From IMG/VR virus record IMGVR_UViG_3300009155_000035: DNA of 64,000 nt; one strand, given 5' to 3'. The position numbers and the translations under genes were made by a program. Below are positions 2,249-59,078 of the stretch, piece after piece (positions within the stretch are counted from its first letter, which is position 1; each line of letters starts with the position of its first letter). Origin of the DNA: a virus (lineage: Duplodnaviria; Caudoviricetes). The notes under the pieces are model-generated. The model saw only the letters and a program-made list of their open reading frames with translations, was not told where the DNA came from and did not search any database.

Positions 2249-3277
2249 ATGACTCAAGTTGTAATTCACAAAGGCACTTATCGCAATCAAAACGTGCGTG
2301 GTGTTGCATTTACTCTTGTTAAAGACTTTACAAAAGGCGCCCGTGGCGGCTTTGTAACTGTTAAAAGCGAGGGACATTTTGGTCCCGAATTTGACGTGGT
2401 GCGTGTCCGTGTTGACAGCATCGAGGATATTGAAATTGTTGGAGGAAACACTGTGACAGCCCAGACCAAGACTGTAGAGTTCAAGCACCCAGTACACATA
2501 GAGACTGAAGAAGAAGCCATGGATCGTATCCGTACTCGATTTGAAATACTAACAGAGATGACCAAGGCATGTACTGCCGGTGACATCCGTGCTATGATTG
2601 TGAGTGGCCCCCCTGGTGTGGGCAAGAGCTTTGGTGTAGAACAAGAAGTTGACAAGGCTTGCATGTTTGACAAAATTTCTGGCAAGCGTCTCCGCGCCGA
2701 AGTTGTTAAAGGTAGTGCCACCCCAATTGGCCTGTATCAAACTCTGTACAAGTATTCGGACCCTAACTGTGTCGTGGTATTTGACGACTGTGACAGCATC
2801 TTGCTGGATGACGTTGCACTAAACCTGCTCAAGGGTGCCTTGGATTCCGGCAAGAAGCGCAAGATTTCCTGGTTATCAGAGTCTAGTACTCTGCGCCGTG
2901 AAGGCATCCCGGATCAATTTGAGTTTAAAGGCAGTGTTATCTTTATTACAAACTTGAAGTTTGACACAATGAAGTCACAAAAATTGCGTGACCATTTGGA
3001 CGCTTTGCAAAGTCGTTGTCACTATCTGGATCTCACACTGGACACCATGCGTGACAAACTGTTGCGCATCAAACAAATTGCCCGGGATGGTGTGTTGTTC
3101 CAGGATTACGATTTTGAGCAGTATCAGCAAGATGCCATCTTGGAGTTTATGAACACCAACCAAGCTCGCTTGCGTGAGATGAGCCTGCGTATGGCTCTCA
3201 AGATTGCAGACCTAGTCAAGAGCTTCCCTGCAAAGTGGAGATTGATGGCTGAGACAACTTGCATGAAGAGTGCCTAA
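2249..3277 (+). CDS. P-loop AAA-type ATPase with a small N-terminal beta domain
   Basis: Walker A GPPGVGKS, Walker B-like VVFDDCD. Start moved to ATG 2249 behind an AAGGAG RBS. Confidence 0.75.
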   Translation: MTQVVIHKGTYRNQNVRGVAFTLVKDFTKGARGGFVTVKSEGHFGPEFDVVRVRVDSIEDIEIVGGNTVTAQTKTVEFKHPVHIETEEEAMDRIRTRFEILTEMTKACTAGDIRAMIVSGPPGVGKSFGVEQEVDKACMFDKISGKRLRAEVVKGSATPIGLYQTLYKYSDPNCVVVFDDCDSILLDDVALNLLKGALDSGKKRKISWLSESSTLRREGIPDQFEFKGSVIFITNLKFDTMKSQKLRDHLDALQSRCHYLDLTLDTMRDKLLRIKQIARDGVLFQDYDFEQYQQDAILEFMNTNQARLREMSLRMALKIADLVKSFPAKWRLMAETTCMKSA

Positions 3278-45014: not shown

Positions 45015-45042
45015 CATAGTTTTCGCGTATAATAAATAACAA

Positions 45043-45104
45043 TGTAGCGCCGATGGTCGGGCTACACTTATAGTCAACTTGCTTATTAAAGGAGAAATGA
45101 CATG
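45043..45104 (+). promoter_or_regulatory. Structured 5'UTR, ROSE-like RNA thermometer candidate
   Basis: 5' hairpin tgtagc-g-ccga-tgg-tcgg-gctaca; then CTTGCTT pairs with AAGGAG leaving a bulged G; TAAATA at 45033. Confidence 0.55.
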
Positions 45105-45548
45105 ACTAAAATCACATCTTTTGATCTAACCCCCTTCTACCGTACATCAATTGGCGTAGACCGCTTGTTTGATCGTATTATCAACCAAATTGATAATACG
45201 GCTACAGCAGGCACTAACTATCCCCCATACAATATTGTAAAAACTGGTGAGCATACCTTTGAACTACAATTAGCATTGGCTGGGTTTACACAAGGCGAAG
45301 TTGAAATCACTGTCAAAGATGGTGTAATTTCAATCACGGGCGAGAAGAAAACTTCAAGTCTGCCCGAAGGACATGAGTACTACTACCAGGGTATCAGTGC
45401 TCGTAAGTTCTTCCGTAGTTGGCCTTTGGGTGATTACGTGGAAGTTGTTGACGCTTTGATGCGTGATGGTATTTTAACTGTTCGTCTTGAACAACGAGTA
45501 CCCGATGCCATGAAACCGAAAACAATTGAGATCGCATATCAAAACTAA
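45102..45548 (+). CDS. hsp20: Small heat-shock protein Hsp20 (IbpA-like)
   Basis: NYPPYNI, LALAGF, YYYQGISARKF, DGILTV, KPKTIEI. Confidence 0.95.
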   Translation: MTKITSFDLTPFYRTSIGVDRLFDRIINQIDNTATAGTNYPPYNIVKTGEHTFELQLALAGFTQGEVEITVKDGVISITGEKKTSSLPEGHEYYYQGISARKFFRSWPLGDYVEVVDALMRDGILTVRLEQRVPDAMKPKTIEIAYQN

Positions 45549-57714: not shown

Positions 57715-58416
57715 ATGAGTGAAATTGTTTACACACTTGTAGTGACACATATTACTATACTGTGTGTGACACTATTCTTGCACCGTGGTCAAGCACATAG
57801 AGCAGTGACCTTCCACCCGGCAATAGAGCATTTTATGCGTTTCTGGTTATGGATGACAACCGGACAAATTACCAAGCAGTGGGTCGCTGTGCATCGCAAG
57901 CATCATAGATTCACTGAACAACCGGGCGACCCGCACAGCCCGCACGTATTTGGATTTTGGAGAGTGCTGTTCAAGGGTGCTTTCTTGTATCATTCGGCAA
58001 CCAAAGATTCTAAAATGGTCGCACAGTACGGGTCGGGTACTCCGGATGATTGGATGGAACGTAATGTCTACACTCCACATAGTCGACTGGGAATTATTCT
58101 GTTATTGTTGATAAATTTACTTTGTTTTTCCTGGTGGGGGTTATTGATATGGGGTATGCAAATGATTTGGATACCATTCTGGGCCGCTGGTGTTGTCAAC
58201 GGTGTTGGTCATTGGTTGGGTTATAGAAACGGCGAAACCCGAGATCACAGTACTAACTTCAGTCCTTGGGGTATTATTATAGGTGGTGAGGAATTACACA
58301 ACAATCATCACTTGGATCCTGCCAGTGCTAAATTAAGCCGCAAGTGGTGGGAATTTGATATTGGGTGGACATGGATTTGTCTACTAGAACGATTTGAACT
58401 AGCCACAGTTCGGTAA
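57715..58416 (+). CDS. Acyl-lipid/acyl-CoA (delta-9-type) fatty acid desaturase
   Basis: His boxes HRGQAH, HRKHH and HNNHH; TM segments; GEELH. Confidence 0.9.
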   Translation: MSEIVYTLVVTHITILCVTLFLHRGQAHRAVTFHPAIEHFMRFWLWMTTGQITKQWVAVHRKHHRFTEQPGDPHSPHVFGFWRVLFKGAFLYHSATKDSKMVAQYGSGTPDDWMERNVYTPHSRLGIILLLLINLLCFSWWGLLIWGMQMIWIPFWAAGVVNGVGHWLGYRNGETRDHSTNFSPWGIIIGGEELHNNHHLDPASAKLSRKWWEFDIGWTWICLLERFELATVR

Positions 58417-58490
58417 AAATTAGTGCCCGTTTACTAATAAAAATTGTGATTTATATTGCAATGCAACATAAATAAGTGTACAATAGAAAT

Positions 58491-58547
58491 ACAAGATGCC
58501 TGTATTGGGTCTTGTTCGTAAACTTGCTTAATAAGGAGAAAACTATG
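58491..58547 (+). promoter_or_regulatory. Second ROSE-like structured leader
   Basis: acaagat-g-cc-tgtatt-gg-gtcttgt hairpin, then AACTTGCTTA-ATAAGGAGAA. Confidence 0.5.
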
Positions 58548-58814
58548 TTTACAGCCGACACACTTATCGATACCGTACAAACCGGTAAAAAAACTTTGGT
58601 GAACACTTTTATCACCAACGAAACAGCCAAAGACGCAATGATCAAATTCATTGACGCTCAGTCAGACTACACCAAAAAGGCCGCCAAAGTTAGCATGGAC
58701 ACATTTACTACACTATCTAGTGAAATGGTCAAAGCCAGTCAAAACGCCATGAAATTTGATTACGTCAAATTTGGTGAAGGCATTATGAAGGCTTACACCG
58801 CCAAAGCCAATTAA
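58545..58814 (+). CDS. Small all-helical amphipathic protein (phasin-like, tentative)
   Basis: 89 aa from ATG 58545 with AAGGAG RBS; Ala/Thr/Lys-rich amphipathic helices. Confidence 0.4.
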   Translation: MFTADTLIDTVQTGKKTLVNTFITNETAKDAMIKFIDAQSDYTKKAAKVSMDTFTTLSSEMVKASQNAMKFDYVKFGEGIMKAYTAKAN

Positions 58815-58831
58815 ATCTGACCAAAATCAGG

Positions 58832-58860
58832 TTGACCAGTAATCCTGTTCATGTTATATT
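58832..58860 (+). promoter_or_regulatory. Sigma70-type promoter
   Basis: GG-TTGACC-17bp-TATATT with TGn, 5 nt before ATG 58866. Confidence 0.7.
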
Positions 58861-58865
58861 ACAGC

Positions 58866-59078
58866 ATGAGCAGGATTTTTATTATTGTCTCTATATTGAT
58901 AGCAGGGTGCGCACAGGCTCCAAAAGTACCTGTTGATGTTGCCCTAATTCCCAACGATTGTGCGAACCGGCATGCCATTATTCGATGGCTTGAATCGGTG
59001 CTTGAAACGGATAAAAGCAATGAAAGTGCTATTAAAGCCCGCATTTGGACTTTGCGTTATAGCTGTCAGCCTGTTTAA
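58866..59078 (+). CDS. Putative lipoprotein
   Basis: Lipobox LIAGC. Confidence 0.6.
   Translation: MSRIFIIVSILIAGCAQAPKVPVDVALIPNDCANRHAIIRWLESVLETDKSNESAIKARIWTLRYSCQPV

What the first reader, a model, noticed from the sequence alone, without database searches (positions are those of the whole stretch)
58469..58814. A second copy of the hsp20 leader architecture precedes a phasin-like orphan: a mini heat regulon
Seen: AACTTGCTTA-(T/A)TAA(A)GGAGAAA is shared by 45076-45097 and 58521-58541. Both follow TAAATA and a hairpin of the same shape (6-7-bp stem, bulged G, CC...GG) with different stem sequence, and both keep the UUGCU/SD pairing. Established: ROSE elements mostly control small heat-shock genes; phasins are amphipathic and some have chaperone-like effects. 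Inference: the orphan is co-regulated with Hsp20 by one RNA motif, which hints at a stress or chaperone role.
Basis: partly seen in the sequence, partly recalled or inferred. Interest (0 to 1): 0.75.

Follow-up and report, generated by a model that had tools for sequence, protein, structure and literature searches.

The report
Phage heat-switch RNA on second gene
A giant lake-water phage puts the two-hairpin RNA leader that bacteria use as a thermometer in front of its small heat-shock gene and also of a conserved 89-residue helical protein of unknown function, whose promoter carries the operator that bacteria use for their storage-granule (phasin) genes.

Summary
AACTTGCTTA-N-AGGAGAAA occurs only at 45076-45097 and 58521-58541 (none in shuffles). 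Both leaders match only Rfam ROSE_3, full length, at 28.8 and 29.4 bits, below the cut-off of 43.

The window is part of a 92.7-kb fragment of a ~350-kb freshwater jumbo phage. The "orphan" is not an orphan: it has more than 1000 homologues. 77 of 80 viral loci keep the two-hairpin leader, and 10 of 11 hairpin I pairs show changes on both sides.

A covariance model built from these leaders finds one copy before this gene and one before hsp20 in all nine near-complete relatives. One relative has a third copy before groES-groEL. 41 Burkholderiales genomes gave no hit beyond a phage-like contig.

Each leader's 5' flank complements its own start-codon region, so the SD and AUG are both enclosed.

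"Phasin-like" is not shown by homology. Phasin_2 hits are weak and fall in inconsistent registers, and hhalign gives 1.2%. However, the promoter carries a palindrome that matches published PhaR/PhbF operators, and I found identical 15-mers upstream of Burkholderiales phasin genes.

Temperature response is untested. This scan has already noted ROSE-like leaders on phage chaperone genes in at least 62 other genomes. I found no paper that describes them.

The parts
58454..58468 (.). Palindromic operator TATTGCAATGCAACA (TGTTGCAnTGCAACA in relatives), of PhaR/PhbF type, overlapping the -35 hexamer
   Evidence: It matches the published PhaR consensus TGCRNYGCASMA at 11 of 12 positions (PMC6201568). 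Relatives match TG[N]TGC[N]3GCAA exactly (PMC3206438). 54 of 81 loci match at 11/12 or better. Identical 15-mers lie upstream of Burkholderiales Phasin_2 genes. The longer motif, the box followed by CATAAATA, occurs about twice per phage genome.
58456..58484 (+). Sigma-70-like promoter TTGCAA-17-TACAAT. It encloses ATAAATA (58468-58474), which could instead be a phage late-type -10 element.
   Evidence: Consensus scan. The arrangement is conserved in relatives. ATAAATA is under-represented in the contig, with 12 copies against about 32 expected, and three of the 12 lie at these promoters. The transcription start site has not been mapped.
58491..58515 (+). Leader hairpin I: ACAAGAU/GUCUUGU stem, bulged G58498, CC/GG, and a 6-nt loop
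   Evidence: Predicted at every temperature from 5 to 50 C. In 60 distinct leaders, 10 of 11 pairs show changes on both sides, 89% of cells are paired, and sliding the partner column drops pairing to 46-54%. The GAUGCC...GGGUC letters are shared with the ROSE_3 consensus.
58518..58552 (+). Leader hairpin II. The anti-SD CUUGCU (58523-58528, G58526 bulged) faces the SD AGGAG (58534-58538). The closing helix GUAAA (58518-22) / UUUAC (58548-52) encloses the AUG (58545-47).
   Evidence: SD/anti-SD pairs are 96% kept, with C-G/U-G alternation and one C-G to U-A double change in 7 sequences. The closing helix is in the MFE structure. Own-start duplexes are more stable than cross-type or shuffled ones. 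The SD/anti-SD hairpin is of marginal stability.
58545..58814 (+). Gene for a conserved 89-aa three-helix phage protein (P0002), function unknown
   Evidence: More than 1000 homologues and 80 viral loci at 55-86% identity. Codon-position differences are 0.255/0.198/0.495. AF2 model has pLDDT 85.7 with helices 4-22, 26-70 and 73-88. No Pfam or PHROG family. An identical 331-nt contig in a lake metatranscriptome covers 58507-58837.
58841..58887 (+). Terminator-like hairpin plus T-run after the gene. It overlaps the start of the next gene, a lipoprotein.
   Evidence: Consensus scan only. The RNA contig ends at 58837, which is a weak hint.
45043..45066 (+). hsp20 leader hairpin I: UGUAGC/GCUACA, bulged G45049, CCGA/UCGG, loop UGG
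   Evidence: MFE structure with z = -3.1 for the whole leader. In 31 distinct hsp20 leaders, 8 of 11 pairs show changes on both sides and 92% are paired.
45072..45107 (+). hsp20 leader hairpin II. The anti-SD CUUGCU (45078-83, G45081 bulged) faces the SD AGGAG (45090-94). The closing helix AGUCA (45072-76) / UGACU (45103-07) runs over the AUG (45102-04).
   Evidence: ROSE_3 match over 45041-45107 at 28.8 bits. R1 gives 39.3 bits. Own-start duplex is -5.2 kcal/mol against -0.6 for cross-type.
45102..45548 (+). hsp20 (IbpA-like small heat-shock protein, 148 aa)
   Evidence: Pfam HSP20 E = 5.5e-16; PHROG 432 E = 4.4e-36.

Best explanation
The stretch 58454-58814 is a self-contained transcription unit of a freshwater jumbo phage.

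Its 5' leader (58491-58552) is a short two-hairpin ROSE-like RNA. It is a paralogue of the leader on the same phage's hsp20 gene and a diverged relative of the Pseudomonas ibpA thermometer (Rfam ROSE_3).

Hairpin I is a stable structural hairpin. Hairpin II pairs the conserved CUUGCU with the Shine-Dalgarno AGGAG, leaving one G bulged, and a short helix closes it by pairing the 5' flank with the first codons. In the cold both the ribosome-binding site and the AUG are therefore enclosed. Warming should melt this marginally stable hairpin and allow translation.

The phage thus translates Hsp20, this 89-aa helical protein and (in some relatives) GroES-GroEL together, independently of the host heat-shock sigma factor.

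Transcription of the 89-aa gene probably has a second gate. A palindromic operator of the host PhaR type overlaps the -35 hexamer. Expression would then require both relief of PhaR repression, which in bacteria happens when PHB granules form, and warmth.

The protein is most likely an amphipathic, phasin-like or holdase-like helper acting on granules or aggregates.

Shown here:
- the motif and its covariation
- its restriction to these genes
- the operator match

Inferred:
- the temperature response
- PhaR binding
- the protein's activity
For: Motif and family:
- The motif is unique to two sites in the contig.
- ROSE_3 is the only Rfam family matched, always full length, for both gene types in this and related phages, at 25-37 bits.

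Conservation and covariation:
- 77 of 80 loci of the 89-aa gene keep the leader. All 45 viral hsp20 loci show the same two-hairpin layout by eye.
- Hairpin I covaries: 10 of 11 pairs in the 89-aa gene leaders and 8 of 11 in the hsp20 leaders, with 89-94% of cells paired against 33-54% when partners are slid.
- The SD/anti-SD pairs are kept, with C-G/U-G alternation and one C-G to U-A change.

Specificity of the model:
- Model R1, trained on 59 leaders of the 89-aa gene plus one hsp20 leader, recovers 43 of 45 hsp20 leaders.
- R1 gives 2 hits per phage record in 8 of 10 records. One relative has a third copy before groES-groEL, and another a marginal hit (E 0.49) that is not a ROSE leader.
- In 41 Burkholderiales genomes R1 hits only a phage-like contig.

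Structure:
- Each leader type is complementary to its own start region: -2.9 and -5.2 kcal/mol for own pairs, against -1.3 and -0.6 for cross-type pairs.
- The SD/anti-SD hairpin is marginally stable. For the window's leader in context, predicted dG crosses zero near 25 C; for isolated CUUGCU hairpins across loci it does so at 13-26 C.

Operator:
- It matches the published PhaR/PhbF consensus.
- It is identical to boxes upstream of 24-26 of 30 Burkholderiales phasin genes.
- No PhaR DNA-binding domain was found in four complete phage genomes, so the binder would have to be a host protein.

Gene:
- It is under purifying selection.
- It is present alone in a lake metatranscriptome contig.
Against: - No experiment shows temperature dependence.
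- Rfam scores never reach the ROSE_3 gathering score of 43.
- ViennaRNA does not predict strong SD masking. SD-unpaired probability is 0.40-0.62 for this leader between 5 and 42 C. For the hsp20 leader it even falls with temperature, because the model prefers an alternative fold.
- An isolated hairpin II has an MFE of 0 at 37 C.
- Leaders with CUCGCU are predicted to melt only at 40-51 C, which is high for lake organisms.
- Hairpin II is almost invariant, so covariation cannot confirm it.
- The closing helix does not covary within a gene family, because its 3' arm is coding.
- The sequences are phylogenetically related, so pair counts overstate the number of independent events.
- Homology of the protein to phasins is not supported.
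- The host is unknown. The Polynucleobacter MAG that holds a copy showed no PhaR domain.
Confidence: 0.6

Rival explanations
1. The conserved two-hairpin leader is real but does not sense temperature. It acts as a constitutive translational attenuator or a 5' stabilising structure, or it is the target of a trans-acting phage or host factor (protein or sRNA) that times expression during infection.
For: - Thermodynamic predictions show only weak, gradual opening, and none for the hsp20 leader.
- CUCGCU variants are predicted to melt above 40 C.
- Scores lie below the ROSE_3 gathering threshold.
- The hairpin I loop and the GAUGCY/GGGUC letters are more conserved than structure alone requires. 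That could mark a binding site.
Against: - The defining ROSE signature, U(U/C)GCU opposite the SD with a bulged G, is invariant. It is the part shown by others to confer heat sensitivity (summarised in PMC11182007).
- All targets of known function are heat-shock chaperones: hsp20 and groESL.
- Nearest-neighbour models ignore the non-canonical pairs of ROSE elements, so their weak signal carries little weight.
Confidence: 0.22
2. The 89-aa protein has nothing to do with phasins, PHB granules or protein quality control. It is an unrelated phage protein, for example a structural, assembly or host-takeover factor, that happens to use a ROSE-type leader. The palindrome is the site of some other regulator.
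For: - No Pfam or PHROG family.
- Fold searches are non-specific.
- hhalign against 30 Phasin_2 domains gives a probability of 1.2%.
- The family profile finds no bacterial phasin.
- Weak Phasin_2 hits fall in inconsistent registers.
- The gene neighbourhood is variable and uninformative.
- The same palindrome also precedes an unrelated 51-aa ORF.
Against: - The operator is letter-for-letter the kind found upstream of bona fide phasin genes and matches two published PhaR consensus sequences.
- Phasin_2 is the family matched by most family members, 13 of 50.
- The other ROSE targets in these phages are all chaperones.
Confidence: 0.35
3. The resemblance of the two leaders is a by-product of a recent duplication or gene conversion of a promoter-RBS cassette, or chance, and has no function of its own.
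For: The 21-22-nt SD-proximal block is nearly identical in the two leaders.
Against: - The hairpin I stems differ in sequence but keep their shape within one genome.
- Both leader types are kept separately across phages whose proteins have diverged to 55% (the 89-aa protein) or 44% (Hsp20) identity to the window's copies, with compensatory changes.
- There are 0 chance matches in shuffles.
Confidence: 0.02

Closest known systems
Short two-hairpin ROSE-like RNA thermometers of Pseudomonas ibpA (Rfam ROSE_3, RF02523; Krajewski et al. 2013, PMC3669281)
   Same: - Two hairpins in a roughly 55-65-nt 5' UTR.
- Hairpin I has a bulged G and GAUGCC...GGGUC letters.
- Hairpin II has U(U/C)GCU opposite AGGAG with a bulged G.
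- The start codon follows closely.
- The match to the model is full length.
- One of the two target genes is an IbpA-like sHSP.
   Different: - It is encoded by a phage, not a bacterium.
- Scores of 25-37 bits lie below the gathering score of 43.
- The loop and spacer of hairpin II are AU-rich.
- A closing helix reaches into the coding region.
- The second copy controls a gene that is not a heat-shock gene of any known family.
- The temperature response is untested.
Known RNA thermometers of phages: lambda cIII, SPbeta blyA (fourU), a gut Caudoviricetes sigma-70 gene (fourU), as listed in PMC11182007
   Same: All are cis-acting 5' UTR structures in phage genes that gate translation.
   Different: None of them is ROSE-like and none controls a chaperone. 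Those are single genes, whereas here a two- to three-gene set is conserved across a phage family.
PhaR/PhbF operators of phasin promoters (H. seropedicae TG[N]TGC[N]3GCAA, PMC3206438; B. diazoefficiens TGCRNYGCASMA, PMC6201568)
   Same: - The same TGC-N3-GCA palindrome with the same flanks.
- It overlaps the promoter of a small helical protein gene.
- Identical 15-mers lie upstream of Burkholderiales Phasin_2 genes.
   Different: - It sits in a phage genome that encodes no PhaR.
- Binding is not tested.
- The regulated protein is not a recognisable phasin.
Phasins (Pfam Phasin_2, PF09361), some with chaperone-like activity (e.g. Azotobacter PhaP, PMC4117528)
   Same: A small, all-helical, amphipathic protein rich in Lys, Ala and Thr. 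13 of 50 family members give weak Phasin_2 hits.
   Different: - At 89 aa it is about half the length of the Burkholderiales phasin reading frames sampled (164-236 aa in all but one of 39).
- Scores lie below the cut-off and in varying registers.
- Profile-profile and profile-genome searches are negative.

Membership tests
ROSE-like RNA thermometers (Rfam ROSE_3) | Located in the 5' UTR directly upstream of the regulated start codon, and made of two to four hairpins | tested here: met
   There are two hairpins between the promoter-like -10 element and the AUG in both leaders. The layout is conserved in 77 of 80 loci of the 89-aa gene and in all 45 hsp20 loci.
ROSE-like RNA thermometers (Rfam ROSE_3) | The terminal hairpin holds the SD imperfectly paired with a conserved U(U/C)GCU motif | tested here: met
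   CUUGCU faces AGGAG in both window leaders. Relatives carry CU(U/C)GCU, and these pairs are 96-99% kept.
ROSE-like RNA thermometers (Rfam ROSE_3) | A bulged G opposite the SD | tested here: met
   G58526 and G45081 are unpaired in the conserved register. This G is kept in nearly all of the leaders aligned.
ROSE-like RNA thermometers (Rfam ROSE_3) | Score at or above the Rfam gathering threshold (43 bits) | tested here: not met
   The window leaders score 28.8 and 29.4 bits, and relatives 24.7-36.7 bits. The matches are full length and ROSE_3 is the only family hit, so I read this as a diverged relative rather than a curated member.
ROSE-like RNA thermometers (Rfam ROSE_3) | Translation repressed at low temperature and released at high temperature | not testable with these tools
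   Only nearest-neighbour estimates are available. They show a marginal hairpin with dG = 0 near 13-26 C for CUUGCU variants and 40-51 C for CUCGCU variants. Ensemble predictions are inconclusive.
Phasin_2 (PF09361) | Pfam score above the gathering cut-off (24.9 bits), aligned in a consistent register | tested here: not met
   P0002 has no hit. 13 of 50 relatives have hits with best E = 8e-4, all below the cut-off. The G003 homologue scores 14.7 bits. The registers differ between members.
Phasin_2 (PF09361) | Profile-level homology to bona fide phasins | tested here: not met
   hhalign of the family alignment against 30 Burkholderiales Phasin_2 domains gives probability 1.2%. The family profile finds no phasin in 31 genomes.
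Phasin_2 (PF09361) | Binds PHA granules | not testable with these tools
   This needs granule-binding or localisation assays.
PhaR/PhbF-regulated promoters | Operator TG[N]TGC[N]3GCAA / TGCRNYGCASMA overlapping the promoter | tested here: met
   The window's TATTGCAATGCAACA matches TGCRNYGCASMA at 11 of 12 positions, with one mismatch to the H. seropedicae motif. Relatives are exact. The same boxes lie upstream of 24-26 of 30 phasin genes, against 5 of 30 control regions.
PhaR/PhbF-regulated promoters | Bound and repressed by PhaR, and relieved by PHB | not testable with these tools
   This needs EMSA or footprinting and reporter assays. The host is unknown.

The most novel reading that the evidence does not exclude
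A jumbo phage has built a two-input switch for a small granule- or aggregate-binding protein. A borrowed host PhaR operator reads the host's PHB carbon store, and a borrowed ROSE thermometer reads temperature. The phage therefore deploys a phasin-like holdase, together with its own Hsp20 (and GroESL in some relatives), only in warm, carbon-replete cells. The 89-aa family would then be a new, phage-specific class of minimal phasin or chaperone.
Probability: 0.25. Interest if true: 0.8.

Novelty: new variant of a known kind. Interest (0 to 1): 0.64.

Why it matters
Very few RNA thermometers are described in phages. A 2024 paper lists lambda cIII, SPbeta blyA and one gut-phage sigma-70 gene (PMC11182007), and none of those is ROSE-like.

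Here a ROSE-type leader is conserved, with compensatory changes, in a whole family of ~350-kb freshwater phages and in cultured relatives such as Methylophilales phage Melnitz. It defines a small phage-encoded regulon.

The regulon gives a functional handle on a widespread phage protein family of unknown function, with more than 1000 members. That family is co-controlled with Hsp20 and GroESL and sits behind a host phasin-type operator.

If confirmed, phages would be shown to sense temperature, and perhaps host carbon storage, through cis elements taken from bacteria. It would also supply a set of natural ROSE variants that may be tuned to cool-water temperatures. Every step can be tested with standard reporter, EMSA and aggregation assays.

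Tried and rejected
- **Rfam at gathering threshold over the window:** no match.
- **The genome search with RF02523 on the own genome:** nothing found, although cmscan sees both sites. I attribute this to the tool's first-look filter.
- **Fold searches of the AF2 model (AFDB clusters, PDB, ESM Atlas):** only generic helical hairpins, relaxase middle domains and the like. No phasin and no informative fold.
- **PDB profile search:** only designed helical bundles.
- **tblastn of P0002 against 50,697 phage records:** no match.
- **GTDB genomes:** only two MAG contigs, labelled Haliscomenobacter and Polynucleobacter. These are probably mis-binned phage DNA, so they give no host call.
- **hhalign and profile searches for phasin homology:** negative.
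- **Longer or fused hits from the representative search (P0174, P0242 and others):** they carry unrelated domains and add nothing.
- **T4-type late promoter TATAAATA:** not enriched in the window, with 3 copies against 3.0 expected. I therefore leave the promoter class open.
- **The 51-aa ORF sharing the operator:**
- **PhaR DNA-binding domain:** not found in the Polynucleobacter MAG. This is uninformative because the MAG's completeness is not known.
- **A marginal third R1 hit in G050 (E 0.49):** not a ROSE leader.
- **Metatranscriptome contigs:** they cannot give a transcription start site or an expression level. Uncovered neighbouring genes prove nothing.

Full report
**1. Where we are**

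The window is positions 13042-77041 of a 92,746-bp IMG/VR viral contig, estimated 27% complete. Nearly all genes lie on one strand. They include ribonucleotide reductase, ligase, helicases and tail proteins, and a ClpX-bS21-Hsp20-ClpS block. Relatives are 316-364-kb phage genomes, several with direct terminal repeats, from freshwater metagenomes. The finding therefore concerns a jumbo phage.

**2. The observation**

- AACTTGCTTA occurs twice in the whole contig, at 45076 and 58521, each time just upstream of AGGAG.
- The composite pattern has 2 matches in the window and none in 100 shuffles.
- The upstream hairpins have the described shape: a 6-7-bp stem, a bulged G, then CC(GA)/(UC)GG, with different stem letters.
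- The start codon of the second gene is the ATG at 58545, which gives an 89-aa protein. The GTG at 58476 listed by the ORF finder is not the start.

**3. What the RNA is**

Permissive Rfam scans of each leader return ROSE_3 (RF02523) as a full-length match. Scores are 29.4 bits at 58490-58550 and 28.8 bits at 45041-45107, against a gathering score of 43. In 16 related loci ROSE_3 is again the only family hit, at 24.7-36.7 bits, for both gene types.

The match includes the GAUGCC...GGGUC letters of hairpin I, not only its shape. That points to common descent with the short Pseudomonas ibpA elements. By the definition quoted in PMC11182007, a ROSE-like element has two to four hairpins, an SD imperfectly paired with U(U/C)GCU, and a bulged G. 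All the sequence-level criteria are met.

**4. Comparative evidence**

The 89-aa protein has more than 1000 homologues at E <= 0.01. 80 viral loci were fetched, at 55-86% identity.

*Leaders of the 89-aa gene*
- 77 of the 80 loci carry the same promoter, hairpin I, CU(U/C)GCU and AGGAG layout.
- On a MAFFT alignment of 60 distinct leaders, my explicit structure has 91% of cells paired, against 46-54% when partners are slid by one column.
- 10 of 11 hairpin I pairs show changes on both sides. No shuffle out of 500 reaches the observed covariation score.
- Hairpin II is nearly invariant, as expected if it must match the SD. It does alternate C-G with U-G, and it has one C-G to U-A double change in seven sequences.

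*Leaders of hsp20*
- All 45 viral hsp20 loci show the same architecture.
- A covariance model (R1), built from 59 leaders of the 89-aa gene plus one hsp20 leader, recovers 43 of the 45.
- In that alignment 8 of 11 hairpin I pairs show changes on both sides and 94% of all cells are paired.

*Cultured phages*
- Methylophilales phage Melnitz has a clear copy before hsp20, at 49.6 bits with R1 and 34.1 bits with ROSE_3.
- Synechococcus phage S-CAM4 has a weaker one.

**5. A closing helix**

In the MFE folds the 5' flank of the anti-SD pairs with the start-codon region. The pairs are GUAAA/UUUAC for the 89-aa gene (which begins M-F-T) and AGUCA/UGACU or GUCAU/AUGAC for hsp20 (which begins M-T-K).

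Own-pair duplexes average -2.9 and -5.2 kcal/mol. Cross-type pairs average -1.3 and -0.6, and shuffled flanks about -1. Each paralogous leader is thus fitted to its own coding start, and the AUG is enclosed as well as the SD.

**6. A regulon**

- R1 gives exactly two hits in the window's contig and in four complete relatives. One precedes the 89-aa gene. Where I read the downstream frame (three relatives and the window), the other precedes hsp20.
- Five further near-complete genomes give two or three hits.
- The third hit in one genome precedes groES-groEL. The extra hit in another genome is marginal and not a ROSE leader.
- In 41 Burkholderiales genomes R1 finds only a phage-like contig, so the model is specific.
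- Three loci of the 89-aa gene lack the leader and join the promoter directly to the SD (L062, L078, L079). The leader is therefore a separable module.

**7. Does it sense temperature?**

This cannot be shown here.

- For this window's leader taken in its flanking sequence, the five-pair SD/anti-SD hairpin with its bulged G has dG of about -2.4 kcal/mol at 5 C and about 0 near 25 C.
- Isolated CUUGCU hairpins across loci reach dG = 0 at 13-26 C. The stronger CUCGCU variants do so at 40-51 C.
- Full-ensemble predictions show only a gradual opening for this leader, and an alternative fold for the hsp20 leader.
- These models ignore the non-canonical pairs known from ROSE structures.

I read the marginal stability as compatible with a thermometer tuned to lake temperatures, not as proof.

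**8. The protein**

- It is a real gene. Pairwise differences by codon position are 0.255, 0.198 and 0.495.
- The AF2 model has three helices and pLDDT 85.7.
- An identical 331-nt contig in a lake metatranscriptome covers 58507-58837 and nothing else of the 2 kb searched. This is a weak hint of a monocistronic and relatively abundant mRNA.
- It has no Pfam or PHROG family.

The case for homology to phasins is weak:
- Phasin_2 is the family most often matched among 50 relatives (13 members, best E = 8e-4). The hits fall below the cut-off and in inconsistent registers.
- hhalign against 30 Burkholderiales Phasin_2 domains gives 1.2% probability.
- The family profile finds no bacterial phasin.
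- Fold searches are non-specific.

Homology to phasins is therefore not shown. The resemblance is compositional.

**9. The promoter adds an independent argument**

- The window has TATTGCAATGCAACA (58454-58468). Relatives have TGTTGCAnTGCAACA, overlapping the -35 of a TTGCAA-17-TACAAT promoter.
- The published PhaR/PhbF motifs are TG[N]TGC[N]3GCAA for H. seropedicae, confirmed by footprinting (PMC3206438), and TGCRNYGCASMA for B. diazoefficiens (PMC6201568).
- 54 of 81 loci match the latter at 11/12 or better. The central positions vary while TGC and GCA stay fixed.
- In 30 Phasin_2 genes from 23 Burkholderiales genomes, 26 have a TGC-N3-GCA box within 330 nt upstream, against 5 of 30 control regions. 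Several 15-mers are identical to phage boxes, for example TGTTGCACTGCAACA.
- The extended motif occurs about twice per phage genome. The second copy precedes a 51-aa ORF with no Pfam family.
- The four complete phage genomes encode no PhaR DNA-binding domain.

The promoter is therefore of the kind that host PhaR represses at phasin genes. Binding is untested and the host is unknown.

**10. Literature and earlier notes**

I found no paper describing ROSE-like elements in phages. PMC11182007 counts only three phage RNA thermometers, none of them ROSE-like.

Notes of this scan report ROSE-like leaders on phage hsp20, dnaK and groES in at least 62 other genomes. First readers on other genomes saw the same "phasin-like" gene with this leader and palindrome, without follow-up. 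These notes are leads, not evidence. The parts I reused were tested here.

**11. Verdict**

- The RNA is a diverged, phage-borne relative of the short ROSE thermometers. It is duplicated onto a second gene and conserved by selection.
- The "mini heat regulon" reading is supported at the level of shared cis-control, with hsp20 and in one relative groESL as the other members.
- "Orphan" is wrong.
- "Phasin-like" is unsupported by homology but gains indirect support from a PhaR-type operator.
- The mechanism, thermally melted SD/AUG masking probably combined with PhaR-gated transcription, is inferred and readily testable.

Noticed in passing
window 58454-58468; second copy at G000:C1:79040-79056 (= window coordinate about 65999-66015, outside the window; L174): A perfect palindrome of PhaR/PhbF-operator type followed by CATAAATA occurs about twice per phage genome. 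One copy precedes the 89-aa gene. In this contig the other precedes a 51-aa ORF (MIARLLERLAEMF...) with no Pfam family and no ROSE leader.
   Followed up: partly
L175:170-240 (G047:C1:120766-120840), then groES L175:236-523 and groEL L175:535-2154: In one near-complete relative, a third ROSE-like leader (R1 44.6 bits) precedes a phage groES-groEL operon.
   Followed up: partly
L062, L078, L079 (about 100 nt upstream of position 3001 in each): Three homologues of the 89-aa gene lack the ROSE leader. In L062 and L078 the palindrome-bearing promoter abuts the SD. In L079 a different GC hairpin plus a T8 run precedes the SD.
   Followed up: no
L012, L026, L045, L047-L049 (leaders upstream of position 3001): In one subgroup the SD is AAAGGAAAA and the anti-SD is AUUUUGUCU instead of ACU(U/C)GCUU. 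This looks like a coordinated change of both partners, giving a U-rich, fourU-like pairing.
   Followed up: no
L171:530-603 (Methylophilales phage Melnitz-3, MZ577098.1) and L172:554-601 (Synechococcus phage S-CAM4): Cultured Kyanoviridae phages carry the same two-hairpin ROSE-like leader before hsp20. The copy is clear in Melnitz and weaker in S-CAM4.
   Followed up: partly
whole contig G000: ATAAATA is under-represented, with 12 copies against about 32 expected from base composition. Three of the 12 lie at the promoters of hsp20, the 89-aa gene and the 51-aa ORF. The exact T4 late box TATAAATA is not enriched in the window.
   Followed up: partly
window 58507-58837: A lake-water metatranscriptome run holds an identical 331-nt contig that covers only the distal leader and the 89-aa gene. 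A second RNA contig comes from a relative's leader and start codon.
   Followed up: partly
window 58841-58887 and 58866-59078: The terminator-like hairpin after the 89-aa gene overlaps the probable true start (ATG 58866, MSRIFIIVSILIAGC lipobox) of the next gene. That gene opens a run of small lipoprotein or secreted-protein genes conserved in 24-33 of the 80 related loci.
   Followed up: no
L137 (MAG labelled Haliscomenobacter, 70-kb contig) and L138/L173 (MAG labelled Polynucleobacter, 6-kb contig): The only genome-collection copies of the 89-aa gene lie on contigs of two unrelated MAGs. These are probably phage DNA binned with bacterial genomes, so they are no evidence of the host.
   Followed up: partly
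window 57715-58416: A phage-encoded fatty-acid desaturase (Pfam FA_desaturase, E = 3e-13) lies directly upstream of the 89-aa gene here. It was found in only 9 of the 80 related loci, and it lies directly upstream of the gene in three of the four I looked at.
   Followed up: partly
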